In this document: piece after piece, positions 1 to 18,644 of the stretch | How the letters are laid out: each line of letters begins with the position of its first letter | How positions within the stretch are numbered: position 1 is the first letter of the stretch | Source: an uncultured Bdellovibrionales bacterium | Lineage (GTDB): Bacteria; Bdellovibrionota; Bdellovibrionia; Bdellovibrionales; JAMPXM01 | Reading direction: 5' to 3' | Assembly: GCA_964405465.1 (NCBI GenBank) | Contig: CAYONZ010000011.1 | Coordinates: 57,800 to 76,443 of the forward strand | DNA length: 18,644 nucleotides | Program-made: the position numbers and the translations under genes | The notes under the pieces: generated by a model | Database searches by the model: none | What the model was told of the DNA's origin: nothing | Seen by the model: the letters and a program-made list of their open reading frames with translations, nothing else

Positions 1-978
1 GGAAACCTCGTTCCTGGATTTTCAAATTTTTTGCAAGCACTGTCGCTCGGGTCGACCTCTTTGCCTCTCGCGATTGGACTCATTTTGATGATGTATCCTC
101 CGTTGGCAAGAGTGAAATATGAAGAGCTACCTCAGGTATTTTTGAATAAGCGGATTTTGCTTTTGTCTCTTGTGCAGAACTGGTTACTTGGACCTGTTCT
201 TATGTTTGCATTGGCTGTGATCTTTCTTCGGGATCGCCCAGAATACATGAGTGGGCTTATTTTGATAGGCTTAGCTCGATGTATAGCTATGGTGATTGTT
301 TGGAATGATTTGGCAGGTGGTAGCCGTGAGTACTGTGCCGGATTGGTGGCCATGAATTCAGTTTTTCAAATCTTGTCATTTCCATTTCTGGCATTTTTAT
401 TTTTAACTTTGATCCCGCGATGGATGGGATTACCTGGGACGAACGTGTTCATTGGTATCGGAGATGTGGCTCAGGCTGTGCTGCTCTATCTTGGTCTTCC
501 GTTCGGCGCTGGATATTTCACGAGAAGGCTTCTCATAAAAAATCGCGGACCAAAATGGTATGAAACTAAATTTCTGCCCAAAATCTCTCCATTGACTCTT
601 GTATTTTTGCTTTTCACAATTCTGGTGATGTTTTCTCTAAAAGCAAATCAGATTTTGAGTCTACCCCTTGATGTCTTCAGAATCATGATTCCACTATTGC
701 TCTACTTCTTGATCATGTTTACGCTTTCTTTTTTTATGAGTTATCGGGTAGGGGCGGGTTATCAAGAGTCGGCCACTCTCTCGTTTACAGCAGCATCAAA
801 CAATTTTGAATTAGCCATTGCGGTCGCTGTGGCGACTTTTGGAATTAATCATGGAGCCGCATTTGCGGCAGTCATCGGACCTTTGGTTGAAGTTCCGGTC
901 TTGATTGGTCTGGTGAATGCCTCGCTTTGGATTCAGAGGCGATTTTTTAACTCCTCGCAGGTGGCAGTGAATGTCTAA
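1..978 (+). CDS. acr3: ACR3-family arsenite efflux permease, 5'-partial (reading frame is open to position 1; the 'M' at 31 is a TTG)
   Basis: Polytopic membrane protein whose N-terminal stretch ('[24 protein letters not shown]', '[17 protein letters not shown]') matches the ACR3 family as I recall it (Bacillus ArsB/ACR3). Frame 1 is open from base 1, so the N-terminus lies upstream of the window. ArsC follows immediately, overlapping by 8 nt. Confidence 0.75.
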
Positions 979-1396
979 GGTCGTGAAGATTTTATTTTTA
1001 TGTGTGGCGAACTCGGCGCGAAGCCAATTGGCGGAAGGTTTGGCAAAAGAAATATTTGCCGAGATGGCGCAAATCGAAAGTGCGGGGTCGCAACCTTCGG
1101 GAAAAATTCAACCTTGGGCCATAGAGGTCTTGCGTGATCAGGGAATTGATATTTCCAAAAACTATTCAAAATCGATCGATGACCTGCCTCGCGATTTTTT
1201 AATGAGCTTGGACTATGTGATTACTCTTTGTGCCGAAGAGGTATGTCCAGTGCTCTCCTCACCCGCGAAGCGACTTCACTGGCCGATTCGCGATCCGGCC
1301 ATGGTGAATGAGTCGCAAAAAGCACAGGCTTTCACCGAAGCTCGAGACGAAATTCGCAAACGAATTGAAGATTTTCAAACGACGCTATTAAAGTAA
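971..1396 (+). CDS. arsC: Arsenate reductase, LMW-PTP / thioredoxin-coupled type
   Basis: 141 aa. The CX5R P-loop 'CVANSARS' sits at the N-terminus, and the downstream Cys pair lies in 'TLCAEEVCP', arranged like B. subtilis ArsC (Cys10/Cys82/Cys89). The gene is translationally coupled to the ACR3 gene. Confidence 0.85.
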
Positions 1397-5028: not shown

Positions 5029-5331
5029 TTAAAGCTCGATCCGATCTTTGATAATTCCATCTCGATAAGACGAGGCAATTTGATCTTCATGAACTAAGTC
5101 TACCTTGTAAGGTAACCGTGATTCCTCGATGTCTTCTGCGATTTTCGAAAGATATCCGGAAGGGAAGGGAGTGTTGGGGCTTGAATAGAGAAGATCAACA
5201 TCAGAAAATTTCTGCTGGGTTCCTCTTGCGCGAGATCCAAAAATCCAAACGCGACAGCCCCAGGATTTTAAAGGTTCGATTACATTTTGAGACAAAATAG
5301 AATATTCCTCGGAAGTCATACCTGAGATCAT
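5029..5331 (-). CDS. Minimal nucleotidyltransferase (MNT, pol-beta fold), MntA-like antitoxin partner of the HEPN protein
   Basis: 100 aa. The GS-x10-DxD motif appears as 'GSRARGTQQKFSDVDL'. The start overlaps the stop of the upstream HEPN gene by 4 nt (ATGA). A paralog lies at 7833..8138. Confidence 0.8.
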   Translation of the reverse strand: MISGMTSEEYSILSQNVIEPLKSWGCRVWIFGSRARGTQQKFSDVDLLYSSPNTPFPSGYLSKIAEDIEESRLPYKVDLVHEDQIASSYRDGIIKDRIEL

Positions 5332-5717
5332 TTGTTTTTGAGGTTGGCTAAAAGTTGTTGTGCTTCTGGAAAAAATGCGGTCGCTATTTTTATGACTTCA
5401 ACAGCAATGTCTTCGTCATAGGCGTGAGAGGTCTTATTTCTTCCCTCAATAAAATCAAACCATAAATTTGGATCGGAAATCAATTGATTCTGTGCCATCT
5501 CACGAACGACAGGTTTTGCGGCGGTTGATTTTGATCCAAGAACTTTGGCTGAGACTTTCCATGCGATTTCAATCGAGTACTCAAAACGTTGAATTGCAGC
5601 ATCTCGAACGAACTTGTAAAAAGCCGAACTTTGAGAGTGTTGTTCCCTATTTAACTCATTCAGTGCCTCCTGAAGAGACAGCAAAGCTTTTTCAAACTCA
5701 ACAATACTAACACTCAT
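5328..5717 (-). CDS. HEPN-domain protein (nucleotidyltransferase substrate-binding / HepT-like putative RNase toxin)
   Basis: 129 aa, helical. The C-terminal 'RNKTSHAYDED' fits the HEPN Rx4HxY motif. It is immediately upstream of the MNT gene and translationally coupled to it. Confidence 0.75.
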   Translation of the reverse strand: MSVSIVEFEKALLSLQEALNELNREQHSQSSAFYKFVRDAAIQRFEYSIEIAWKVSAKVLGSKSTAAKPVVREMAQNQLISDPNLWFDFIEGRNKTSHAYDEDIAVEVIKIATAFFPEAQQLLANLKNK

Positions 5718-5875: not shown

Positions 5876-6451
5876 TTATTTTTCGTGATGGGTTCCAACA
5901 CGCAAAACCATTTGAATATCTGCAATCGATTGGCCGTTGATTCGAAACAGATCTTCGGTCGTACCGATTTGTTTGAACCCCAGAGATTCATAGAGAGACA
6001 CGGCGGGTGTATTGTGAGCGAAGACATAGAGTTCGATCCAATCAATGCCGGCTTGGGCCCTCGCCCAAGTGATGGCCGTGTCGGCTAACTTTCTGCCCCA
6101 GCCTTGACCGCGTGCCTCACGCTCAAGGCCCATTCCAAAAACAGCGCGATGGAGTGAAGCCTTAAGGCTACCAGATTTTAGGTCTGCGTGGCCCACAATG
6201 CGATCCTCTTTTTCAACGATCCAAACGGCTTCCCACCCAACTTGATCAAGTGGCTTCGACCACTTGACTTTGAGTTTTTCAACGAACTCGTTTTTGTTCC
6301 ACTCCGCGTGATCGCTTGTTGGGTGAAAGATAATATCGCCATTGCCAGACTCACCAAAGTGTCTTTGCAGGTGTTCAAAAAACCGAGCTTCATCTCCCGG
6401 CTGTGTACGTCGAAGTTTCATTCTCGTCTCACTTCTGTTGTTATCGATCAA
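5876..6451 (-). CDS. GNAT-family N-acetyltransferase
   Basis: The acetyl-CoA-binding motif 'QGWGRKLADTAI' (Q/R-x-x-G-x-G/A) and the C-terminal 'YESLGFKQ' are typical of GNAT enzymes. The more likely start is the second Met (MKLRRTQPGDE) at 6421. It is on the same strand as the HEPN/MNT pair 1, 158 bp upstream of it. Confidence 0.7.
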   Translation of the reverse strand: MIDNNRSETRMKLRRTQPGDEARFFEHLQRHFGESGNGDIIFHPTSDHAEWNKNEFVEKLKVKWSKPLDQVGWEAVWIVEKEDRIVGHADLKSGSLKASLHRAVFGMGLEREARGQGWGRKLADTAITWARAQAGIDWIELYVFAHNTPAVSLYESLGFKQIGTTEDLFRINGQSIADIQMVLRVGTHHEK

Positions 6452-6647: not shown

Positions 6648-7829
6648 ATGAAATTTTTGATACTTGTTCTTTCGACATTGTGCCTGCCAATGAGTGCGCT
6701 TTCTCAAGTCAATCCCGCGGCGGAGGCCAGCAATCAGTTCGCCTTTGACATGTACAAGGTGAACGCAAAGAACTCAGACAACTTATTTTTCTCTCCACTG
6801 AGTCTTGAAGCGGCGCTGGCGATGACAGCGGCCGGTGCACAAAACGAAACTTTAAATCAAATGACCAAGACCTTGCATTTGCCTCCGAATTACCACCCAG
6901 AGTTTCGAACTTTGCTCGGGCAATTGAAGGGCGGTAGACACTTTCAATTGTTCATTGCCAATCGAATCTGGGGAAGTCTTGGGACTGAATACTATCCCTC
7001 ATTTCTTAATTTACTTCAGGAAAATTACGGTGCCGGCTTATCGGGGCTTGATTTCAAAACGCAACCTGAACCGTCTCGTTTAAAAATCAATGAGTGGGTT
7101 CAGCAGCAAACGAAAGATAAGATCAAAGACCTCTTGCCCCAAAAATCTATCACCGCGGAAACGGATCTTGTTTTGACCAATGCAATCTATTTTAAGGGCA
7201 AATGGGCAGAGCCGTTCAAAAAAGATCTCACGAAAGAAGACAGTTTTTTCGTAGCAGCAACACAAAGAAAGTCGATTCCGTTTATGCATCTCACCTCGCA
7301 TTTTCGCTATGCTGAAAATGCCGACATGCAATTTCTTGAAATGAATTACCTGGGGAATGAACTCGCGATGGACATTCTGCTTCCCAAAGATGGTGTCGAG
7401 TTGTCTTCGATTGAGAAAAAAATAAGTACTTCAGTCCTCGAAGAACTGATTGGCAAAAGTTCATTTGAAGAGGTTCAAGTGTCGATACCGAAATTTAAAA
7501 CTGAATCATCAATGAGTTTGAAAGAGACTTTAACGGCAATGGGCATGCCTTTGGCTTTTGACGAGGAAAAAGCTAACTTTCATGGAATGCGAAAAATTCT
7601 TCCAGGTAAAAATCTCTATATTTCTAAAGTCATGCACAAGGCCTTTGTTGATGTTGATGAAGAGGGAACTGAGGCGGCTGCCGCAACAGCGGTTGTGATG
7701 GGGATTGGGACTGGTCGGCCGTCACGACTTCAGCCAAAAATCTTTAAAGCAAATCGACCTTTTATATTTTTAATTCGCCACTTGAGCTCTGGAGCCATTC
7801 TTTTTATGGGCCGCTATACCCAGCCTTAA
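6648..7829 (+). CDS. Secreted serpin (serine protease inhibitor family)
   Basis: Strong SD GGAGGTG. Signal peptide 'MKFLILVLSTLCLPMSALSQ'. The serpin hinge 'EEGTEAAAATAVVMG' and the C-terminal signature 'FKANRPFIFLIRH' are both present. At 393 aa the length is typical of serpins. Confidence 0.85.
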   Translation: MKFLILVLSTLCLPMSALSQVNPAAEASNQFAFDMYKVNAKNSDNLFFSPLSLEAALAMTAAGAQNETLNQMTKTLHLPPNYHPEFRTLLGQLKGGRHFQLFIANRIWGSLGTEYYPSFLNLLQENYGAGLSGLDFKTQPEPSRLKINEWVQQQTKDKIKDLLPQKSITAETDLVLTNAIYFKGKWAEPFKKDLTKEDSFFVAATQRKSIPFMHLTSHFRYAENADMQFLEMNYLGNELAMDILLPKDGVELSSIEKKISTSVLEELIGKSSFEEVQVSIPKFKTESSMSLKETLTAMGMPLAFDEEKANFHGMRKILPGKNLYISKVMHKAFVDVDEEGTEAAAATAVVMGIGTGRPSRLQPKIFKANRPFIFLIRHLSSGAILFMGRYTQP

Positions 7830-7832
7830 ACT

Positions 7833-8138
7833 CTAGATCTCTACCATTGAGGCTTCGACGTTTTGGCGATAGCTCTTCGCTAGGTTTTTGTTGTTTACGA
7901 GATCGATTTTGTATGGAAACTGAGACTCTTCGAAAAAAATGAGAAGACTCGAGATAAACGTGGAGTCGATCGGGTGGTGTTCATTTTCAATAATCAACAA
8001 ATCAATATCAGAAAATCTGTGGTGCTTGGTGTGGACTCTCGAACCAAAAACAAAAATCTTCGCCTTCCGTGCTTTCAAAGGTTGTATAAGGTGTTGGTCC
8101 AAAAAAGAATATTCTGAATCGGTTAAGCCAAATTTCAC
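7833..8138 (-). CDS. Minimal nucleotidyltransferase (MNT), paralog 2
   Basis: 101 aa with the motif 'GSRVHTKHHRFSDIDL'. It is about 45% identical to the MNT at 5029..5331 over its full length. It overlaps the upstream HEPN gene by 4 nt. Confidence 0.8.
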   Translation of the reverse strand: MKFGLTDSEYSFLDQHLIQPLKARKAKIFVFGSRVHTKHHRFSDIDLLIIENEHHPIDSTFISSLLIFFEESQFPYKIDLVNNKNLAKSYRQNVEASMVEI

Positions 8139-8587
8139 GTCAAGATATCCTCAATTTTTTGACAAAGATCCTCGAAGTAGGGGATTGATTTTTGTGTGAT
8201 AGCGTAGACCTCTTTGGCAACGTCTTCGTCATAAGTGTGAGAAGTTTTATTTCTAGCGGTGAGCAGCTCAAACCAAGTGTCAGTCTCATCGATGAGATTG
8301 TTTCTAGCCATGTCCCGGATTGCCGTGTTCGGAGATTTGAGTTCAAGACCGAGAGCTTTAACTGCAGTTTTCCACGAGAGTTCCACGCAAAACTCGAACC
8401 TTTGAATGCATGAGTCTCGCAGAGCTTTTTGCAGCTCGACTGCTTGTGGTTGACCATTCCGAGCTTCGTCTAAAAGCCTTGAGGATGTCTTTAAAGACGC
8501 AATTACATTTTTTAACTCTTGGGTGGATAGAGAGGTTGATTTCAACTGAAGGCTCCCGGAGAAAAATTGGATCAGGTTCTGGACCAT
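8135..8587 (-). CDS. HEPN-domain protein, paralog 2 (HepT-like)
   Basis: 150 aa with 'RNKTSHTYDED' (Rx4HxY). It is collinear with HEPN1 ('CIQRFEFCVELSWKTAVKALG' versus 'AIQRFEYSIEIAWKVSAKVLG') and carries an N-terminal extension of about 20 aa. Confidence 0.75.
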   Translation of the reverse strand: MVQNLIQFFSGSLQLKSTSLSTQELKNVIASLKTSSRLLDEARNGQPQAVELQKALRDSCIQRFEFCVELSWKTAVKALGLELKSPNTAIRDMARNNLIDETDTWFELLTARNKTSHTYDEDVAKEVYAITQKSIPYFEDLCQKIEDILT

Positions 8588-8782: not shown

Positions 8783-9823
8783 TTAGGGGGCCTGATATTT
8801 TCGGCCCTTTTTTTCGCCGCTCATTTTTAATTTTTTTTCCTTCACTAGATTTTCGATGTCCCGTTCTAAAGTTCGACGAGGGGTCTCTGGTAAAAGTGCG
8901 ACAATGTTTTTCATTTGAAAACCAGATTGGCTCTCGGCAAACTTCATAATTTTTTTTGCGCGAGTCTCGGGGCTAAGTTTTTTTGGTTTCTCAAAAAGCT
9001 GATGCGCCTCTTGAACCACCTCTTTGGTCGCTGTTGCAAAACACTCGATCATAAATTCCAGCATCGGTTGGGTACTCTGAAGGGCTTTGCATTGTTTGAT
9101 AGCAGCATAGTAACGCCCACGATTTCTCATTACGATCGCTTCAATAGGAATGTAACGAGCGATGTTTTCACCGCCCAGCAAGAGCAAGATCTGCTGAAAA
9201 AGTCTGACGGTTCGTCCATTCCCCTCGGCGAAAGGCTGGATGGCGACAGCCAAATAGTGAAATGCAAAGGCTTTGGCAAACGGATTGGACTCTTCGTTGT
9301 CTTTAAGCCATGCCCATAGATCTTCCATTAAAAATGGAACTTGTTTCGGATCGGGACACACTTCGACCTCGGAGGCAGTGGCTTGGTCAACAATTGAAGC
9401 TGGAATCGTACGAAAGCGACCATGCTGGTTTTTTTGAACCAATTCGTCAGTAACCAATTTTTGTAAATCACAAAAGTCGCGAATGCTGGGCATTTTTTTT
9501 TCCGCAGCCAACTTTTCTGCAAAATTGAGTGCATTTTGATAATTTAAAATTTCTTTGGCCGCTCGGTTTTTCGGCTTCATCTGAGACGTTTCCAATAATG
9601 TCGCGACTGTCTCTTCGTCGAGTTTATTTCCCTCGATTTGATTCGAATAAGTGATGGCTTTGATTTGTGCTTGTTGCTGAAGTTGAGATTCGAGAGGAGT
9701 TGCTAGCATTTCATCCAGCAAAGGTTTGCTCTCGGCAATTTGCATGAGGCTTTGTACAAAGCCATCAGTGAGTTTTATTTTAAACGGAATTTTACATTGT
9801 TTTAAATAGGAATAACGACTCAT
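8783..9823 (-). CDS. Fic/Doc-family protein, class II (N-terminal inhibitory helix) with a C-terminal winged-helix-like domain. The catalytic His of the Fic motif is replaced by Gln. The start is reassigned to Met24 of the 369-aa ORF
   Basis: The motif region 'FHYLAVAIQPFAEGNGRTVR' reads against the HPFx[DE]GNGRxxR consensus, with Q at the His position. The inhibitory [ST]xxxE[GN] motif 'SNQIEG' lies upstream. The first 23 codons of the annotated ORF (9824-9892) translate a cluster of CCGCCA/TGGCGG palindromes and are probably not coding. Met18 (9841) remains an alternative start. Confidence 0.7.
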   Translation of the reverse strand: MSRYSYLKQCKIPFKIKLTDGFVQSLMQIAESKPLLDEMLATPLESQLQQQAQIKAITYSNQIEGNKLDEETVATLLETSQMKPKNRAAKEILNYQNALNFAEKLAAEKKMPSIRDFCDLQKLVTDELVQKNQHGRFRTIPASIVDQATASEVEVCPDPKQVPFLMEDLWAWLKDNEESNPFAKAFAFHYLAVAIQPFAEGNGRTVRLFQQILLLLGGENIARYIPIEAIVMRNRGRYYAAIKQCKALQSTQPMLEFMIECFATATKEVVQEAHQLFEKPKKLSPETRAKKIMKFAESQSGFQMKNIVALLPETPRRTLERDIENLVKEKKLKMSGEKKGRKYQAP

Positions 9824-9829
9824 TCGCCC

Positions 9830-9912
9830 ATTATCCGCCATATTTCCGCCACAGGCAAGATGGCGGAAATATAACCGCCAAATATCCGCCATTGATGATG
9901 TGGCGGATATTT
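9830..9912. promoter_or_regulatory. Operator-like array of two perfect 12-N9-12 inverted repeats, ATATTTCCGCCA-N9-TGGCGGAAATAT (9840-9872) and AAATATCCGCCA-N9-TGGCGGATATTT (9880-9912), plus two extra half-sites (9830-9840 and 9869-9880)
   Basis: Read directly from the sequence. There are six copies of the CCGCCA/TGGCGG core with AT-rich flanks within 83 bp. The array lies immediately upstream of, and overlapping, the likely Fic start, and downstream of the XRE-HTH gene. Confidence 0.7.
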
Positions 9913-10021
9913 TAAATTTATAAGTAAAACCAGCATGTTATGTGTGTTTAAAGGATATTTTAGTCTATCAGCCAGAGATTAGAGAGCACCGATAACGGTG
10001 GCCTACGACAAATGAACTGCT

Positions 10022-10375
10022 TTAGGCAACTTTGAACTTCAAATTTGGTTTAATGATGTGCAAAAGCTTAAGCAGTTTATCAATAGTGAAGCGACCGTGG
10101 TGGTAATGCACAATTTCGCTGACCCTTGACTCGCTGACCCCAAGAATTTCTGCCAACTCCCGCTGAGTCACATTCTTTTCTTGGCAATAGCGAATAAAAT
10201 GGGCGCACAACTCATGCTTGGCTCGATCCACAGGACTTGCGTCGCGGGGTAAAATCTTGGTTGGCTTAGATTTACCCAGCTTCTTCTCGATCTCAACCCA
10301 TTCGCTTTCTGTGGGCCATCCTGGAGGTGGAGTTTTGCTGACTCTGATAAGCGTTGATTTTTTTGCTTTCTTCAT
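10022..10375 (-). CDS. XRE-family HTH protein, putative antitoxin (HigA-like position) with a basic N-terminal extension
   Basis: A perfect SD AGGAGGT lies 5 nt upstream. The HTH is 'TQRELAEILGVSESRVSEI'. The start overlaps the stop of the upstream RelE/ParE-like gene (ATGA). The N-terminus is Lys-rich ('MKKAKKSTLIRVSK'). Confidence 0.65.
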   Translation of the reverse strand: MKKAKKSTLIRVSKTPPPGWPTESEWVEIEKKLGKSKPTKILPRDASPVDRAKHELCAHFIRYCQEKNVTQRELAEILGVSESRVSEIVHYHHGRFTIDKLLKLLHIIKPNLKFKVA

Positions 10376-10665
10376 TTCGACCTCCTGTAAGCATTTCTCA
10401 CGCCAATATAACTTTCATCGGGCGGTATCACCCAAATCAGACGATAGGGCTTGCCGCTCCAAACTAGGTCTGTTTCGTAAAACTGATAACCGTCCTCACG
10501 AATCATTTGGGGGAGATAATTTTCATAGTTCAATACACCCAACAGCTCCAAAATCAGTTTGTCGTTGATTGATCGGCTATGTTTTTCTTCATAGTGCGTA
10601 TCAATCCAGACCTCGCTGAACCATGTATCATTGATGAAAAGACTCGCTTCAACGATACGGTACAT
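10372..10665 (-). CDS. RelE/ParE-superfamily toxin-like protein (HigB-like gene order: toxin first, HTH second)
   Basis: The C-terminal 'YRLIWVIPPDESYIGVRNAYRR' resembles the RelE/ParE 'RIIYRVDDE..VYILRIGHRKDVY' signature. About 97 aa from the ATG at 10665; the ORF track's earlier start at 10683 is a TTG. It is coupled to the HTH gene. Confidence 0.55.
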   Translation of the reverse strand: MYRIVEASLFINDTWFSEVWIDTHYEEKHSRSINDKLILELLGVLNYENYLPQMIREDGYQFYETDLVWSGKPYRLIWVIPPDESYIGVRNAYRRSK

Positions 10666-10954
10666 CAGATACCACCCTACCAAAACTTCCCAAATTTGGC
10701 AAGCTATTTGTTCCTATCATAAACCGTCCTTTGAAACAAAATGATGATCTTGGACTCTGTGGTGTTGGGATCATGTAGATCCAGGCCGGCATCCCTTAGA
10801 TTGAAAATCTAGTTTTCCCTATGTAAATCTGCCCGGTCTTTAGATCGCTCCAGTCGCCCATGATTATGAATCGGGCAGGTTCAATACACATGCCGAGCCT
10901 AGCTGTGACATTGCAAAGGTGGCCGTCCAAAACCCATCAGAAATGTCCGCAACA

Positions 10955-15121: not shown

Positions 15122-16209
15122 TTATCGTTTGAGCTGATACACGTTCCCTTCGGCTTTTTGGTCTTCGGGGACAGTGACACCGAGATCCTCAGTCGCTCCC
15201 TCAATATCCTTCCCACAGAGCCTTAAATAGCCTTGTGTGGTCTTAAGGGACGAGTGACCAACGATAGCCATAACCTTTGAAAGAGCGACCCCATTATTTA
15301 GCATCTGCGTAATAAATGTGGCCCTTAGATCATGAAACTTGATGGAACTGATGCCGATTCCCTTACAGAAGTCTCTTGTTATTTGACCGAGGTGTCCTTG
15401 GTCCCATTCCCATAAGCGGGGTAGTACAAATTCGGCTCCTCCGGCCTTTAGCTTGAGTTCCTGTAAGAACTTTCGACATTCCTTAGAGATGGGATAAACA
15501 CGGTTTTTGGCGGTCTTTGTTGGACCCTCGCCGTTGTACCGAGTCCATGCTTTTGAGATATTGATGAATCCCGTTACAAAATCCACATCTATCCAGCGTA
15601 GGGCATGAAGTTCGCCCGAACGCATCCCCGTTAGCAGTGCAAGTGTCCAATGGGGATAAAACTTGTGGTTGATAGATTTGGCTTCACGAAGAAAAATCTC
15701 AATCTCATTTTTGTTAAGCACAGACTGGTTGGCATCCGCGATTTTAACTTTGATACCGACGGCAGGATTTCTGGTTAGAATTCCTTCTTCGATAGCGAGA
15801 TTAAAAATGCGTTTGATGATTTTAATTATTCCCTTGCGAGTCTGGCTAGAAACGCCAGAGACGTGTTCAAAAATTAAATTATGAACTTCACCAGGGGTAA
15901 TCTCATCAATGAAGCGGTCTTTCCAAACTGGCGTTACCCACTTCTCAATATTGAACTTGTAGTTCATATAAGTCGAATTGCGGTATTCGTTCTTATACCT
16001 CTTGAGAAAATGTTCGACCCAGTTGGCCCAAGGCACTTTGTCCTTGTGACCTTCGAGTGAGGTTTTTAGTTCAAACTCCACTCTTTTGGCTTCGCGTTCG
16101 GACGCAATTCCCATCCGTCTTAAGCCAACCTGTTTGCCAGAACTATCTCTAACTTTTACGAATACTTCATACGATAGTTTGCCATCCTTTACCTTTTTTG
16201 AAATTGCCA
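15122..16209 (-). CDS. int: Tyrosine recombinase / phage-type integrase
   Basis: The C-terminal catalytic region 'HDLRATFITQMLNNGVALSKVMAIVGHSSLKTTQGYLRL' carries the R..HxxR..Y signature. The N-terminus 'AISKKVKDGKLSYEVFVKV' looks like an arm-binding domain. The likely start is GTG at 16209, with SD AAAGGAA, immediately after the xis stop. The longer ORF to 16303 would overlap xis by 90 nt. Confidence 0.85.
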
Positions 16210-16212
16210 CAG

Positions 16213-16428
16213 CTATTCCTTTCTGTGGAACAGCATGGAAATTTCGGAAATTCGGAATCTGAGACTTCGGCCAAAGCGATAACAAGGAATGAGTCCTCTG
16301 CACACTTTGATCCGCAACGCATTTTCCGAGATCCCCAAAAATTGGGCGGCAACTCTCGTAGATACATACTCACGCACTATTTTGTTTTCAAAGAACTTCG
16401 AGCTTTCATCCAGCTCGTTAACTTTCAT
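16213..16428 (-). CDS. xis: Excisionase/AlpA-like small DNA-binding protein
   Basis: 71 aa. 'VSTRVAAQFLGISENALRIKVCRGLIPCYRFGRSLRFRISEI' is typical of the excisionase/HTH_17 family. It lies directly upstream of int on the same strand. Confidence 0.7.
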   Translation of the reverse strand: MKVNELDESSKFFENKIVREYVSTRVAAQFLGISENALRIKVCRGLIPCYRFGRSLRFRISEISMLFHRKE

Positions 16429-16453: not shown

Positions 16454-16489
16454 TCAAGAATAATTAGGTTGAAGGCTAATTATTCTTGA
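16454..16489. promoter_or_regulatory. Perfect 14-bp inverted repeat TCAAGAATAATTAG-N8-CTAATTATTCTTGA in the divergent xis / arsR-family promoter region
   Basis: Read directly from the sequence. It sits 20 bp upstream of the ArsR-family ATG (16509) and 26 bp upstream of the xis start on the other strand. Confidence 0.6.
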
Positions 16490-16508
16490 TGTTATTGTTT
16501 TGTTCGTA

Positions 16509-16817
16509 ATGAAGAAAATAGCGGCATCTAAAAAGGAACTTGATGAATATGAGATAGTCTTTCGTGCTTTGGCCCATGTCTCACGGCGGCATATTATCGT
16601 ATGCCTAAGCCAAAAGGACGGTCCTATGCTTGGAGGCGAAATCGCTGACCAACTTTCCTGTTCCTGGCCGACAACAACAGGGCATTTGCAAACATTGGAA
16701 AAAGCCGGGCTTGTTACTGTCAAAAAGCAGGGCCGTGAACAACTCTACAACTTAAATTTTGATCGTCTGAATGTACTTCAGAATTGGATCAATTTTTTAA
16801 ATAAAGGACCCAAATGA
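16509..16817 (+). CDS. ArsR/SmtB-family HTH transcriptional regulator (no CVC metal site)
   Basis: 'FRALAHVSRRHIIVCLSQKDGPMLGGEIADQLSCSWPTTTGHLQTLEKAGLVTVKKQGREQLYNL' matches the ArsR-family wHTH pattern. The ATG at 16509 is preferred over the TTG at 16500. Its stop overlaps the next gene's start (ATGA). Confidence 0.7.
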   Translation: MKKIAASKKELDEYEIVFRALAHVSRRHIIVCLSQKDGPMLGGEIADQLSCSWPTTTGHLQTLEKAGLVTVKKQGREQLYNLNFDRLNVLQNWINFLNKGPK

Positions 16818-17833
16818 TAACAAATGAAGATCTTAAAAAAGTTGAAGGATTAATTGAAGACTTCAAACCAAAAATTTCTTTTTTCGAAAGAGAAATTTTA
16901 ATCCCTGCTGTAAATGGCAGATTGGAATATTTGGTATCTATTTTCGTTGAGTTCCAAAAAATTTGTAAAGAAAAAGATGTCGCCACTCATATTGATGCTG
17001 CCCTTCGGACAATCGTAAATCCGAATAAATTGGATGTTAAGTTGCCAGAACCCAAGGTCGGCGAACAGTATCTTTCGATCATTCACAAAATGCTTCAGGA
17101 TGAGTATATCGACCCAATCGGTAAACTTATGACGAAGTATCCCATCCGGGACATTGCAAAAGATATTGAGTCGCTTACAAATTATTTGAATGACGTTAGC
17201 AACGTACTTATCTCCATTCCGGCGACCAAAGATAAACTGTTTCAATATTCTCTTAGGTCTTTTCCGAATATTAAGGAGATTAAGTCGGGAAAAGTTGTAT
17301 TAGGACCGCCAAGCGAAATCTCGTTGGTTCTGATGCCTTTTCAAACTCGCCTTGAGGAGCTGGTGAATGTTGCACAAACAACCATCGACTCAATCAGGGG
17401 TTGGGCCGAGCAAATGCGGGATCAAAAGAAAAAACACGTTGAGGCTATAATAAATCTTTGCCAAGTAAAAGCTGCGGAAGAACAAGCAAATGCCTCAAAA
17501 GAAGATTTGCTTTCCGCCCAGGAGCAAACAAAGGCCGCGAAAGAAAGTGTAGAGGCAGCAAAGCAGTCTGTTATTGTCGCTAAAAAGAATCTTTGGATTC
17601 AGGTTGCTGTGATTGTTTTCACCGTTGGAACAGTAATCGTTAGTCAGAGGGTCAATTTATTGCTCGAACGAATTGAACTTGAGAAGGCACTGAATGAAAA
17701 GTCATCAAGCCTTGCTGCTTCCTCAGAAAAAATAGACGAGGGTCTCAAAAGAGAATCTTTATGCGACGAAAAAGTTTTGGCGATACAGTCTTCTTTGAAA
17801 CAATGTGAGAGAGAAAAAAGTCAGAAGAAATAG
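16814..17833 (+). CDS. Hypothetical protein with an N-terminal ~250-aa domain, coiled-coil segments and one transmembrane helix ('IQVAVIVFTVGTVIVSQ')
   Basis: It is translationally coupled to the ArsR-family gene. No motif was recognised. The tail is a Lys/Glu/Ala-rich coiled-coil. Confidence 0.5.
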   Translation: MITNEDLKKVEGLIEDFKPKISFFEREILIPAVNGRLEYLVSIFVEFQKICKEKDVATHIDAALRTIVNPNKLDVKLPEPKVGEQYLSIIHKMLQDEYIDPIGKLMTKYPIRDIAKDIESLTNYLNDVSNVLISIPATKDKLFQYSLRSFPNIKEIKSGKVVLGPPSEISLVLMPFQTRLEELVNVAQTTIDSIRGWAEQMRDQKKKHVEAIINLCQVKAAEEQANASKEDLLSAQEQTKAAKESVEAAKQSVIVAKKNLWIQVAVIVFTVGTVIVSQRVNLLLERIELEKALNEKSSSLAASSEKIDEGLKRESLCDEKVLAIQSSLKQCEREKSQKK

Positions 17834-17925
17834 AGCCACTAATGTAAATTGCGAGCGTAGTGAACGGGATAGGGTTCAGATAAGGTGATATGTGACAAGC
17901 CACTTCGCGCCAGATAAAGTTCCTC

Positions 17926-18300
17926 TCAATTAAAATATTGGCCACCTAATAGCCGCACGGCCAAATAGTACAGGCCAACGGCAATTGTTCCAATGAACTG
18001 CGCAGGACCTGAACTCAGCTTTCGAGTCATAAGCTTGTGCATATTCGCCAGAAATAAGTCGTCGGCGTCCTTACGATCCCGAACCGTATTTGGTTTGGCG
18101 TAGGTATAGTCGTGAATGTCACAGGCAGGCTTAAGATCAACGCTGAGAATTGAGTTTGGAACCAACCCTGTGGCCCTCGTGGGGCCACAGCCATTGGTAA
18201 CTTCATATTTTTCGCCATCGCTTAGGTTCCAATAACTTTCAGGAGCCAGTAGGCCCCGAATCTCCGTCAGCTTTTCGCTCAGGACTTCCTTTCGTATTTT
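17926..18300 (-). CDS. Prokaryotic phospholipase A2-like domain (PF09056-like). It has no ATG; the frame is open upstream to a TAA at 18301-18303
   Basis: 'CDIHDYTYAKPN' matches the 'CARHDFGYRNY' His-Asp region of Streptomyces PLA2. The C-terminal 'GLYYLAVRLLGG' matches 'TYYQAVKIFG', and there is an upstream 'NGCGPT' Cys. The ORF track's 'M' at 18165 is a TTG. The frame stays open for 45 more codons upstream, overlapping the 3' end of the next ORF. Confidence 0.5.
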   Translation of the reverse strand, partial: KIRKEVLSEKLTEIRGLLAPESYWNLSDGEKYEVTNGCGPTRATGLVPNSILSVDLKPACDIHDYTYAKPNTVRDRKDADDLFLANMHKLMTRKLSSGPAQFIGTIAVGLYYLAVRLLGGQYFN

Positions 18301-18574
18301 TTATTTTGGTTCGTATTTCTAAAAGGGCGGCTTCAACCTTTTCCACCGAGTCGAGATCCTTCAGTTGCATACGAATGTAGGCTTTGGGGTTGAAGTGACT
18401 GTCAGCAAGTTTTGATTTCGTCTGGCTGAAACTTTTTTTGAAAAAATAAATGAGCGCCCATCCGGCCAAACTCGAAGGCGTCACAGATGCCTCGGGATTT
18501 TCTTGTTTCACCTGGGCCAGCATTTCGGTAACGGCGTCTTTGGCTTCACCCTCCAAGGTAAGTCTCAAAGACAT
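18239..18574 (-). CDS. Hypothetical 111-aa protein; possibly the N-terminal part of a frameshifted fusion with the PLA2-like domain
   Basis: It has an ATG start with a weak SD and no signal peptide. It ends 'KIKNTKGSPERKADGDSGPTGS*', low-complexity sequence right after an A-rich tract (AAAATAAAAAAT, - strand), where the +1 frame continues into the PLA2 domain. Confidence 0.4.
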   Translation of the reverse strand: MSLRLTLEGEAKDAVTEMLAQVKQENPEASVTPSSLAGWALIYFFKKSFSQTKSKLADSHFNPKAYIRMQLKDLDSVEKVEAALLEIRTKIKNTKGSPERKADGDSGPTGS

Positions 18575-18644
18575 TATTTTTTCTGATCCTTGGCGGTTAT
18601 CCCAAGATTCTGTGAGTCAGAGAATTTGAGTCAGGTGGCGTTAG

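What the first reader, a model, noticed from the sequence alone, without database searches (positions are those of the whole stretch)
17926..18574. Prokaryotic PLA2-like gene apparently split by a +1 frameshift inside an A-run
Seen in sequence: the - strand frame ending at 17926 encodes 'NGCGPT...CDIHDYTYAKPN...GLYYLAVRLLGG', which parallels the Cys/His-Asp/Tyr-Tyr landmarks of Streptomyces secreted PLA2 (CARHDFGYRNY ... TYYQAVKIFG). That frame has no ATG. It stays open upstream to a TAA at 18301-18303 that lies inside the tract AAAATAAAAAAT. The 111-aa ORF 18239..18574, which has an ATG and a weak SD, runs through the same tract in the -1 frame and terminates 20 codons later in low-complexity sequence. 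Losing one A from the A6 run would fuse the two into a ~215-aa protein with an N-terminal domain and a C-terminal PLA2 domain. Possibilities are a sequencing indel in a homopolymer, a phase-variable or slippage-dependent toxin-like gene, or a recent pseudogene. A phospholipase effector next to an integrase-bounded island is a plausible toxin cargo.
Basis: partly seen in the sequence, partly recalled or inferred. Interest (0 to 1): 0.65.

Follow-up and report, generated by a model that had tools for sequence, protein, structure and literature searches.

The report
Overlapping gene pair, not a frameshift
The apparent "broken" phospholipase gene is really two separate overlapping genes conserved in a mobile element of Bdellovibrio-like bacteria, and the only oddity is that this copy of the small phospholipase A2-like gene has no normal start codon.

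Summary
The sequence facts are right. The split-gene reading is not.

**Not a split gene.** About ten independent related lineages carry the same two ORFs: A (105-118 aa) and B (about 105-123 aa). B lies in the +1 frame and overlaps A's 3' end. No relative has an indel at the A-run, and no A-B fusion protein was found.

**B is PLA2-like.**
- It belongs to a large family of stand-alone small proteins: 2056 clusters, median length about 129 aa.
- A family profile hits only microbial secreted PLA2 structures (1faz, E = 7e-5).
- The C-x-x-H-D-x-x-Y motif and the downstream Asp are kept.
- The closest characterised relative is TtaP, a DUF1353-class PLA2.

**Setting.** In relatives the pair sits in an integrative conjugative element. 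Distant B homologs sit beside phage endolysins.

**Residual anomaly.** Relatives have ATG or TTG at codons -8/-7 before APESYW. This window has CTG ACG. Two other lineages share this state, and in one of them B is also cut by an IS.

B is intact and shows purifying selection. Either it is weakly translated from a near-cognate start coupled to A, or it is newly silenced. Overall this is a new member of a known kind, of modest interest.

The parts
18239..18574 (-). Gene A. 111 aa with an ATG start. A small helical protein of unknown function with a disordered C-terminal tail, found only in this family of Bdellovibrionales mobile elements.
   Evidence: ORF. There are 31 homologs, all at least 57% identical. 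dN/dS is 0-0.03 against relatives. The AF2 model has pLDDT 69, with helices at 9-25, 33-47, 49-56, 63-71 and 77-94, and residues 96-111 below pLDDT 50. There are no significant Pfam, NCBIfam, PDB or fold hits.
17926..18300 (-). Open frame of gene B, the small PLA2-like protein of the TtaP/DUF1353-like class, including its stop at 17928-17926. The conserved protein starts at APESYW (18246).
   Evidence: define the family. Searches give the PDB PLA2 hits. One search gives the model (pLDDT 87.6). Searches show the PLA2 fold on top. One search shows 26 of 27 conserved family positions retained.
18265..18270 (-). Codons -8 and -7 of B, reading CTG ACG. In relatives these are the usual start positions: ATG ATG, TTG ATG, CTG ATG or TTG ACG. 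They are the most likely near-cognate initiation site in this copy.
   Evidence: Codon tables. In 76 of 118 family members, 5-9 residues precede the AP(E)xYW motif. The T/C difference at -7 is synonymous in frame A (GAT/GAC, sequence).
18295..18297 (-). ATA codon (-17 of B). The relatives L001 and L006 have ATG here, and a gene caller starts B there (P0001, MRKEVL...).
   Evidence: The outgroups L004 and L009 also have ATA, so the ATG is derived.
18297..18303 (-).
   Evidence: Alignments A1 and A4 show no indel here in any relative, and the run itself is not conserved.
18239..18270 (-). A/B overlap: 32 nt counted from the family-typical B start, or 62 nt counted from the first open B-frame codon (18300). 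It encodes A's disordered tail in one frame and B's N-terminus in the other, up to the first two and a half codons of APESYW.
   Evidence: Searches show overlaps of 11-59 nt in relatives, always with B in the +1 frame. One search shows the tail is disordered.
18181..18195 (-). NGCGP motif (N35-P39). It corresponds to the putative Ca2+-loop region. C37 and C59 are the family's two conserved Cys.
   Evidence: Conserved in at least 96% of the family for N, G, C and G. The role is inferred from PLA2 knowledge.
18100..18123 (-). C59-D-I-H62-D63-Y-T-Y66, the active-site motif C-x-x-H-D-x-x-Y.
   Evidence: H and D are invariant. They align to the His64-Asp65 motif (CARHD) of Streptomyces PLA2 1faz.
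18061..18063 (-). D79, the predicted partner of the His/Asp catalytic dyad.
   Evidence: 97% conserved. It aligns with the Asp of 'RIDSAF' in 1faz. The equivalent residue D85 is essential in TtaP (PMC11525133).
15122..16428 (-). Tyrosine integrase (15122-16303) and an excisionase-like ORF (16213-16428). These form the recombination end of the same element.
   Evidence: Pfam Phage_integrase at 9e-23. TIGR01764 excisionase at E = 5e-4, below its cut-off. Relatives L032 and L041 show the same order: A, B, cargo, MarR-HTH, HTH_17, Int.
16500..17833 (+). A MarR/ArsR-type HTH regulator (16500-16817) and a 339-aa ORF of unknown function (16814-17833). They lie between B and Xis/Int.
   Evidence: An equivalent MarR-type gene is in L004, L032 and L041.
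18598..18644 (-). Sequence upstream of A that does not match the lipoprotein gene found at this position in relatives. It has stops in all three frames.

Best explanation
Positions 17926-18574 hold two separate, translationally overlapping genes of an ICE-like mobile element of Bdellovibrionales. It is not one frameshifted gene.

**Gene A** (111 aa) is a small helical protein specific to this element family. Its disordered C-terminal tail is encoded in the overlap.

**Gene B** is a stand-alone phospholipase A2-like protein of about 113 aa.
- It belongs to the TtaP/DUF1353-like class and has the group XIII/XIV PLA2 fold.
- Its predicted catalytic residues are H62, D63 and D79.
- It has no signal peptide.

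**Inferred role.** B most likely hydrolyses envelope phospholipids as an accessory to machinery that crosses the cell envelope. In this element that machinery would be the transfer genes plus a Gly-zipper lipoprotein. In distant relatives it is the phage endolysin cassette.

**What is special about this copy.** The usual start codons of B (ATG or TTG at codons -8/-7) read CTG ACG. I judge that B is still made at a low level. Initiation would occur at a near-cognate codon, CTG at 18270-18268 or ACG at 18267-18265. Ribosomes translating or terminating A would help, because A's stop lies 24-29 nt downstream.

**Shown versus inferred.** Shown: the two-gene architecture, the PLA2 fold and motifs, the absence of a canonical start, and purifying selection on B. 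Inferred: enzymatic activity, the envelope role and near-cognate initiation.
For: **Two genes, not one**
- A search with the conceptual fusion returned only A-like proteins (118 aa) or B-like proteins (119-153 aa).
- About ten independent lineages show A and B adjacent, with B in the +1 frame, overlapping by 11-59 nt, and no indel relative to the window. These are L001/6, L002/3, L004/5/8, L009, L007, L031, L032-34, L035/36, L041-43, L044-46 and L047.
- None of 300 collected homologs matches both A and B.
- The B family has 2056 clusters, and nearly all are proteins of 110-190 aa.

**PLA2 assignment**
- Profiles of 9 and of 75 sequences have four significant PDB matches, and all four are microbial PLA2s: 1faz at 7e-5, 8k1w, 7ygk and 4aup.
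- Pfam hits DUF1353 in 63 of 75 members and PF09056 in 31 of 75.
- The AF2 model has pLDDT 87.6 and pTM 0.83.
- The top five Foldseek hits are all PLA2s with probability 0.98-1.0.
- TtaP, a DUF1353 protein of 125 aa without a signal peptide, has measured PLA2 activity (PMC11525133).

**Context**
- In L002, L032, L041 and L044 the order is TrbI, FtsK_SpoIIIE, a protein of about 275 aa, a Gly-zipper lipoprotein, A, B, regulators, Xis, Int.
- In L004 the protein of about 275 aa has a faint Replic_Relax hit.

**B is still selected**
- dN/dS is 0.07-0.13 against relatives.
- On the window's own branch there are 10 synonymous and 10 nonsynonymous changes. pN/pS is 0.31, with P = 0.0099 against neutrality.
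- 26 of 27 conserved family positions are retained.

**The startless state persists**
- CTG ACG is shared by the window, L007, L041-43 and L001/6. These differ by about 11-19% in B nucleotides.
- Two nested lineages carry new ATGs at different positions: L031 at -7 and L001/6 at -17.
Against: - No canonical start exists, and CTG and ACG are very poor initiators in model bacteria (general knowledge). Nothing here measures translation.
- I found no convincing Shine-Dalgarno sequence at a suitable distance. AAGGAAG lies 14 nt upstream of the CTG.
- One startless lineage (L041-43) also has an IS3 insertion that removes B's C-terminal helix. B can therefore be lost.
- The window's pN/pS (0.31) and L007's (0.42) are somewhat higher than those of start-bearing relatives (0.16-0.20), on small counts.
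- Homology to relatives breaks about 25 nt upstream of A in the window. This copy of the element may be rearranged and the operon may lack its normal upstream context.
- The tree nodes that would make CTG ACG ancestral have only 30-82% bootstrap support.
- PLA2 activity and any role in transfer or lysis are untested. The ttaP deletion in Salmonella showed no envelope phenotype (PMC11525133).
Confidence: 0.5

Rival explanations
1. The architecture is the same two-gene pair, but in this copy B is a young pseudogene. Loss of the start codon (TTG/ATG to CTG/ACG) has silenced it in an element that is decaying. The intact ORF reflects only how recent the loss is.
For: - There is no ATG, GTG or TTG before the conserved domain.
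- The startless sister lineage L041-43 has B truncated by an IS3 insertion.
- Homology to relatives breaks just upstream of A in the window.
- pN/pS on the startless branches (0.31 and 0.42) is higher than on start-bearing ones (0.16-0.20).
- The T-to-C change at -7 is synonymous for gene A, so it costs A nothing.
Against: - There is no frameshift, stop or loss of any catalytic or conserved residue.
- The window branch still departs from neutrality (P = 0.0099).
- The same CTG ACG state occurs in at least three lineages separated by substantial synonymous divergence, with B intact in the window and L007.
- ATG was regained twice at different sites, which suggests selection for expression.
Confidence: 0.35
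2. One reading: one PLA2 gene of about 215 aa, interrupted by a +1 indel in the A6 run. The indel would be either a sequencing error or a real recent mutation.
For: Removing one A gives a continuous 215-aa frame (sequence). Homopolymers are error-prone.
Against: - All relatives have the same length through this tract and the same two ORFs.
- No fused homolog exists among 300 collected sequences or in the hit lists.
- The B family is made of stand-alone proteins of about 129 aa that start 5-9 residues before APESYW.
- A's frame continues past the A-run with conserved residues (KNTKG..ERK), which a reading-frame error would not give.
Confidence: 0.03
3. Programmed +1 ribosomal frameshifting or transcriptional slippage makes an A-B fusion protein. 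Under this view the missing start codon does not matter.
For: - B is always in the +1 frame and always overlaps A.
- The window and L007 lack a start codon.
- tRNA-Lys could re-pair on AAA-AAA at 18301-18298 (sequence).
Against: - Most orthologs have their own ATG or TTG, and gene callers predict stand-alone B proteins.
- The A-run is not conserved. It is A4 in L002 and A5 in L007, L004 and L009.
- A's stop context (TCC TGA or ACC TGA) is not a known +1 shift site.
- Thousands of family members stand alone in other contexts, including phages.
Confidence: 0.04
4. B is a secreted toxin or effector carried as cargo by the island, for example a predation or anti-host phospholipase. Under this view it is not part of the element's own machinery.
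For: - It is PLA2-like.
- Bdellovibrio-like organisms attack prey envelopes (general knowledge).
- TtaP lies in a toxin islet (PMC11525133).
Against: - B has no signal peptide (sequence).
- It has a fixed position immediately after the lipoprotein gene and gene A, and overlaps A. This holds in about nine lineages where upstream sequence is available, and also in serine-recombinase elements.
- By contrast, the genes between B and the MarR-type regulator vary: 339 aa here, 144 aa in L032, 251 aa in L041.
- TtaP itself was not secreted (PMC11525133).
Confidence: 0.08

Closest known systems
TtaP (typhoid toxin-associated phospholipase, S. Typhi), the DUF1353 / PF07087 class of small PLA2s (Gartly et al., J Biol Chem 2024, PMC11525133)
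   Same: - Size is about 110-140 aa, and the protein stands alone with no signal peptide.
- It is a distant homolog of group XIII/XIV PLA2s, with the same HHpred/PDB partners (1LWB/1FAZ and 4AUP).
- It has an H-D motif plus a downstream Asp.
- It is linked to phage-derived envelope-crossing genes. TtaP lies in the typhoid-toxin islet that also encodes the muramidase TtsA, and its relatives are prophage DUF1353 proteins. Here, distant homologs sit next to endolysins.
- 63 of 75 family members give DUF1353 hits.
   Different: - The window protein scores below the Pfam DUF1353 cut-off (17.4 against 22.5 bits), so it belongs to a divergent branch.
- It carries its own conserved N-terminal APESYW..NGCGP motif and two conserved Cys.
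- It sits in an ICE-like element, overlapping a partner gene A, and not in a toxin islet.
- I could not compare it directly with the TtaP sequence, which was not available in the tools.
Group XIII/XIV secreted microbial PLA2s (Streptomyces violaceoruber 1FAZ/1LWB, Tuber borchii TbSP1 4AUP; Pfam PF09056)
   Same: - Active-site C-x-x-H-D-x-x-Y, the dyad Asp, and a C-terminal YY-AV--FG helix, all aligned by HMMER.
   Different: - Sequence identity is only about 20-23%.
- There is no secretion signal or propeptide.
- Only one potential disulfide, against two in the secreted enzymes.
- PF09056 score is 13.3 bits against a cut-off of 29.4.
Out-of-frame overlapping, translationally coupled gene pairs in bacterial and phage operons
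   Same: - The downstream gene starts inside the 3' end of the upstream gene, in another frame.
- The position of the overlap is conserved.
- The upstream protein's overlapped part is a disordered tail under low constraint.
   Different: - The overlap (32-59 nt in most lineages) is longer than the usual 1-4 nt.
- The start codon turns over between lineages among ATG, TTG and none, at positions -17, -8, -7 and -1.
- Coupling itself is inferred, not shown.
Programmed +1 frameshift genes (prfB type)
   Same: Two ORFs with the second in the +1 frame, overlapping.
   Different: - There is no conserved slippery codon, stop context or upstream SD-like stimulator.
- Orthologs have independent starts.
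- No fusion product is predicted anywhere.

Membership tests
PLA2 superfamily, microbial group XIII/XIV-like fold | Helical PLA2 core fold | tested here: met
   [not shown]
PLA2 superfamily, microbial group XIII/XIV-like fold | Catalytic His with adjacent Asp (H-D), plus a downstream Asp as dyad partner | tested here: met
   H62 and D63 are invariant and D79 is 97% conserved in 75 family members, and all three are present in the window. They align to the His64-Asp65 motif and the dyad Asp of 1faz.
PLA2 superfamily, microbial group XIII/XIV-like fold | Significant profile-level sequence similarity to solved PLA2s | tested here: met
   The 75-sequence profile gives 1faz at 7.3e-5, 8k1w at 1.6e-4, 7ygk at 3.4e-4 and 4aup at 5.5e-4. 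The next PDB hit is unrelated, at E = 0.025.
PLA2 superfamily, microbial group XIII/XIV-like fold | sn-2 phospholipase activity | not testable with these tools
   This needs an enzyme assay. The precedent is TtaP, shown with an EnzChek assay and a D85A mutant (PMC11525133).
Pfam PF09056 (prokaryotic secreted PLA2, group XIV) | Score above the Pfam gathering threshold | tested here: not met
   13.3 bits against a cut-off of 29.4, E = 0.13. 31 of 75 relatives reach E <= 0.01, with a best of 1.1e-4. I do not file it as a PF09056 member.
Pfam PF09056 (prokaryotic secreted PLA2, group XIV) | N-terminal secretion signal or propeptide, and two disulfides | tested here: not met
   Relatives start 5-9 residues before the conserved APESYW motif, with no hydrophobic leader. 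Only two Cys are conserved, C37 and C59.
DUF1353 / TtaP-like small PLA2s (PF07087) | Score above the Pfam gathering threshold | tested here: not met
   17.4 bits against a cut-off of 22.5, E = 0.003. 63 of 75 relatives hit at E <= 0.01, and one close family member (P0041) carries a precomputed PF07087 assignment. I treat the window protein as a divergent branch related to this family, not as a strict Pfam member.
DUF1353 / TtaP-like small PLA2s (PF07087) | Stand-alone protein of about 110-140 aa, no signal peptide, phage or mobile-element context | tested here: met
   Median family length is 129 aa. Phage lysis-cassette contexts are L037, L038, L039, L018 and L023.
Frameshift-split or programmed-frameshift gene | Orthologs encode one continuous ORF, or a conserved slippery site sits at the frame junction | tested here: not met
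   There are no fused orthologs. Spacing is identical in all relatives and the A-run is not conserved.
Integrative conjugative element | Integrase and excisionase together with conjugative transfer genes | tested here: inconclusive
   The window holds Int and an Xis-like ORF that scores below its cut-off. The transfer genes (TrbI, FtsK_SpoIIIE and a Replic_Relax-like gene) are seen only in relatives. The window ends 70 nt upstream of A, and homology breaks there.

The most novel reading that the evidence does not exclude
A-B, together with the upstream Gly-zipper lipoprotein, is an unrecognised envelope-breaching module shared by Bdellovibrionota conjugative or integrative elements. It would be evolutionarily tied to a PLA2 component of phage lysis cassettes, a phospholipase partner to endolysins. 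In this module B is translated through coupling to A. That coupling makes a canonical start codon dispensable, which would explain the repeated loss and gain of ATG/TTG and the persistence of startless but intact copies such as this one.
Probability: 0.2. Interest if true: 0.55.

Novelty: new member of a known kind. Interest (0 to 1): 0.3.

Why it matters
For annotation, this locus should be recorded as two genes, and B should not be 'repaired' into a fusion. Gene callers miss B in the startless copies. They missed it even in L044 and L047, which have a TTG start.

The result extends the recently defined TtaP/DUF1353 class of small PLA2s to a large, mostly unannotated family of about 2000 clusters. 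It also gives that family two recurrent genomic settings:
- next to phage endolysins;
- inside the transfer region of Bdellovibrionales mobile elements.

These settings suggest a testable role in crossing or remodelling the cell envelope. TtaP's own function is still unknown.

The start-codon turnover is a small natural experiment on how far an overlapped, presumably coupled gene can do without AUG, GUG or UUG.

Tried and rejected
- **Single-sequence family scans.** Pfam, PHROGs and NCBIfam scans of A, B and the fusion gave only sub-threshold hits. The PHROG label 'tail assembly chaperone' (phrog_1158, E = 6.5e-4) is probably a mislabel by position. I did not adopt it.
- **Gene A function.**
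  - The PDB profile search gave nothing below E = 0.08.
  - Foldseek on a mediocre model gave only noise, with histone-like helices at probability below 0.2.
  - The N-terminal strand-helix-helix topology made me think of a ribbon-helix-helix DNA binder, but nothing supports that, so I leave A as unknown.
- **Frameshift signals.** I looked for a conserved +1 slippery or stop context in the overlap and found none.
- **Shine-Dalgarno.** I looked for one in front of the -8/-7 codons. There is only AAGGAAG, 14-18 nt upstream, which also encodes A's conserved K-G. That is not convincing.
- **Promoter and terminator scan of 17600-18644.** Counts were at chance level.
- **tRNA scan for an att site.** None was found in the window.
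- **The non-homologous 47 nt upstream of A.** I tried to identify it as an IS end and found no match in the window or in the 47 fetched loci.
- **afdb50 fold search.** This would have tested TtaP similarity directly, but the library was unavailable.
- **Metagenome scan with the single protein.** It found only one extra locus.
- **Literature search for PLA2 in phage lysis cassettes.** Nothing specific turned up.
Full report
**1. The observation**

On the - strand, ORF A runs 18574..18239. It has an ATG start and encodes 111 aa.

A second frame, B, is open from just after the TAA at 18303-18301 to the stop at 17928-17926. It encodes KIRKEVLSEKLTEIRGLLAPESYW...NGCGP...CDIHDYTY...YYLAVRLLGGQYFN.

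B is the +1 frame of A. The TAA lies in AAAATAAAAAAT, with an A6 run at 18302-18297.

B has no ATG, GTG or TTG before the conserved part. The first canonical start is the TTG at 18165, which would remove NGCGP. Removing one A gives a 215-aa fusion.

**2. Is it one split gene? No.**

I searched the 215-aa conceptual fusion against 5.8 billion proteins. It found only two kinds of protein:
- A-like proteins of 118 aa;
- B-like proteins of 119-153 aa.

I then fetched the DNA of related loci. These were L001-L009, L031-L036 and L041-L047.

In every lineage A and B are adjacent, B is in the +1 frame, and the two overlap by 11-59 nt. Alignment across the junction shows no indel relative to the window.

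The A-run is not conserved. It is A6 in L001/L006, A5 in L004, L009 and L007, and A4 in L002.

A's frame continues beyond the run with conserved residues (K-N-T-K-G..E-R-K).

Among 300 collected homologs, 31 match A, 269 match B and none matches both.

**3. What B is**

*Family size.* A profile of nine B sequences found 2056 clusters at E <= 1e-3 among 1.84 billion representatives. Of these, 830 are at E <= 1e-10. Nearly all are stand-alone proteins of 110-190 aa, and the median among those I hold is 129 aa.

*Sequence evidence.* Against PDB sequences, the significant hits of the 9-sequence and 75-sequence profiles are four microbial secreted PLA2s:
- 1faz, from Streptomyces, at E = 7.3e-5;
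- 8k1w;
- 7ygk;
- 4aup, from Tuber.

The alignments pair C-D-I-H-D-Y with C-A-R-H-D-F. They also pair the downstream Asp, and Y-Y-x-A-V-x-x-F-G with Y-Y-Q-A-V-K-I-F-G.

Scanned one by one, 63 of 75 members hit DUF1353 and 31 of 75 hit PF09056 at E <= 0.01. The window protein alone is below both Pfam cut-offs.

*Structure evidence.* The AlphaFold model has pLDDT 87.6 and pTM 0.83.
- Foldseek against PDB puts five PLA2 chains on top with probability 0.98-1.0, then nothing.

*Conserved residues.* The window protein keeps 26 of the 27 positions that are at least 85% conserved in the family. These include N35-G-C-G38, C59, H62, D63, Y66, D79, N85, Y110 and V114.

*Closest characterised relative.* This is TtaP of S. 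Typhi.
- It is a 125-aa DUF1353 protein with no signal peptide.
- It was shown experimentally to be a PLA2.
- It was described as a new class distantly related to group XIV enzymes, with catalytic residues H70, D71 and D85 (PMC11525133).

A Vibrio phage homolog is already annotated 'phospholipase A2 domain protein'.

**4. What A is**

A's family is small: 31 proteins, all at least 57% identical.

It is extremely constrained. There are no amino-acid changes in the first 88 codons between the window and L001, at dS = 0.47.

It has no family, PDB or fold match.

The model is helical, with a disordered tail at residues 96-111. That tail is exactly the part that overlaps B. This explains how two frames can coexist there.

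**5. Context**

*In close relatives.* The order is four ORFs without Pfam hits, TrbI, FtsK/SpoIIIE, a protein of about 275 aa (with a faint Replic_Relax hit in L004), a Gly-zipper lipoprotein, A, B, variable ORFs, a MarR-type HTH, an HTH_17/Xis-like gene, and a tyrosine integrase. That is a compact integrative conjugative or mobilisable element of Bdellovibrionales. MAG titles name Bdellovibrio and Pseudobdellovibrionaceae.

*In the window.* The same right-hand end is present: B, a 339-aa ORF, MarR-HTH, an Xis-like ORF and Int.

*In more distant elements.* Bdellovibrionia elements that use a large serine recombinase (L014, L017, L021) have the same trio:
- a Gly-zipper lipoprotein;
- a 115-120-aa ORF collinear with A (hhalign E = 4e-4, weak);
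- an overlapping B.

*In phages.* B homologs at 35-40% identity lie in phages or prophages, one or two genes from an endolysin.

| Locus | Adjacent endolysin-type domain |
|---|---|
| L037 | GH108 |
| L038 | Amidase_2 |
| L039 | PG_binding_1 |
| L018 | Amidase_2 |
| L023 | GH108 |

*My inference.* This class of PLA2 is an accessory of machines that cross the envelope. That is inference only. TtaP's own function is still unknown.

**6. The residual anomaly: no start codon**

In 76 of 118 family members, 5-9 residues precede AP(E)xYW. The normal start is therefore at codon -8 or -7.

The table shows the B-frame codons in each locus.

| Locus | Codons -8 / -7 | Other |
|---|---|---|
| L004, L009 | ATG ATG | |
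| L035 | TTG ATG | |
| L002, L031 | CTG ATG | |
| L044-46, L047 | TTG ACG | |
| L032 | TTG CAG | TTG also at -1 |
| L001, L006 | CTG ACG | new ATG at -17, where the window and outgroups have ATA |
| window, L007, L041-43 | CTG ACG | no canonical start |

The T/C difference at -7 is synonymous in frame A (GAT/GAC). Only B constrains it.

*Phylogeny.* A neighbour-joining tree of A plus B groups the window, L047, L041, L031, L007 and L001/6. L031 is nested inside the group. Internal bootstrap values are 30-82%.

The simplest history has a startless CTG ACG ancestor, followed by:
- two independent rescues, in L031 at -7 and in L001/6 at -17;
- one IS3 disruption of B's 3' end, in L041-43;
- two intact startless survivors, the window and L007.

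*Selection.*
- Pairwise dN/dS of B between the window and these relatives is 0.07-0.13, at dS of 0.9-1.3.
- On the window's own branch I count 10 synonymous and 10 nonsynonymous unique changes. That gives pN/pS of 0.31 and a binomial P of 0.0099 against neutrality.
- Start-bearing relatives give 0.16-0.20, and L007 gives 0.42. All of these rest on small numbers.

*Conclusion on expression.* B has been under purifying selection for most of the window's branch. A very recent silencing cannot be excluded.

I favour weak initiation at CTG or ACG, assisted by ribosomes translating or terminating on A (0.5). The alternative is a young pseudogene (0.35).

Frameshift-based readings get a few percent. 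No slippery site is conserved, and orthologs have their own starts.

**7. Caveats**

- Homology with relatives breaks about 25 nt upstream of A's ATG. Positions 18598-18644 match nothing I hold and have stops in all frames, whereas relatives have the lipoprotein gene ending in TAATG. This copy may be rearranged. Only 47 nt are visible before the window ends.
- I could not inspect reads.
- I could not align B to TtaP directly, because afdb50 was unavailable.
- I could not measure translation or enzyme activity.

**8. Verdict**

The PLA2 assignment is supported. The split-gene interpretation is refuted.

The locus is a new, divergent member of the known TtaP/DUF1353-like PLA2 class. It sits in a conserved overlapping pair within a Bdellovibrionales mobile element.

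There is one modestly interesting twist: start-codon loss and turnover in an otherwise conserved gene. Interest is 0.3.

Noticed in passing
window 18598-18644 (- strand, upstream of gene A): Homology to all close relatives stops about 25 nt upstream of A's ATG. Relatives have the 3' end of a Gly-zipper lipoprotein gene there, ending in TAATG. The window has unrelated sequence with stops in all three frames. This may be an insertion or a rearrangement of the element.
   Followed up: partly
L041:6329-7872, L042, L043: Three samples carry a gene A that is 95% identical to the window's. In them B is startless (CTG ACG), and its 3' end is replaced by an IS3-family insertion (HTH_Tnp_1 + rve), which removes the last helix.
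   Followed up: partly
L037:6717-8408, L038:8001-9332, L039:7042-8426, L018:9142-10336, L023:8916-10333: Distant B homologs (35-40% identity) in phages or prophages lie within one or two genes of an endolysin (GH108+PG_binding_3, Amidase_2 or PG_binding_1). This suggests a PLA2 component of lysis cassettes.
   Followed up: partly
L014:9019-10321, L017:735-1389, L021:9143-10327: Bdellovibrionia elements with a large serine recombinase carry the same trio: a Gly-zipper lipoprotein, an A-like ORF of 115-120 aa (hhalign E = 4e-4 to the A family), and an overlapping B. The module is therefore older than the tyrosine-integrase element.
   Followed up: partly
window 18239-18574 versus 17926-18238: Gene A is much more conserved at synonymous sites than gene B between the same genomes: dS of about 0.4-0.5 against 0.9-1.3, and nucleotide identity of 93% against 81%. 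This could be recombination or mosaicism at the A/B junction, or an extra constraint on A's mRNA.
   Followed up: no
L044:3318-3952, L047:628-1004: The public gene calls omit B in loci where it is intact and has a TTG start at -8. The family is therefore under-annotated in this clade.
   Followed up: partly
window 5029-5717 and 7833-8587 (- strand): Two separate nucleotidyltransferase plus NTase-substrate-binding/HepT-like pairs (MNT/HepT-type toxin-antitoxin modules) flank a GNAT acetyltransferase gene (5876-6451) and a full-length bacterial serpin gene (6648-7829, Pfam Serpin E = 3e-112).
   Followed up: no
window 8783-10683 (- strand): A Fic/DOC-domain protein (369 aa) lies near an HTH protein (117 aa) and a 103-aa ORF. 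This may be another toxin-antitoxin-like or regulatory module, outside the integrase end of the element.
   Followed up: no
window 31-1396 (+ strand): An SBF-family transporter (sodium/bile acid symporter family, 315 aa) is followed, with overlap, by a low-molecular-weight phosphatase-family protein (141 aa). The arrangement resembles an arsenic-resistance pair. That resemblance is from my own recall and was not tested.
   Followed up: no
window 16454-16817: An 89-aa ORF on the - strand (16454-16723) almost fully overlaps the MarR/ArsR-type HTH gene on the + strand (16500-16817). Only the latter has family support and a counterpart in relatives, so the - strand ORF is probably spurious.
   Followed up: partly
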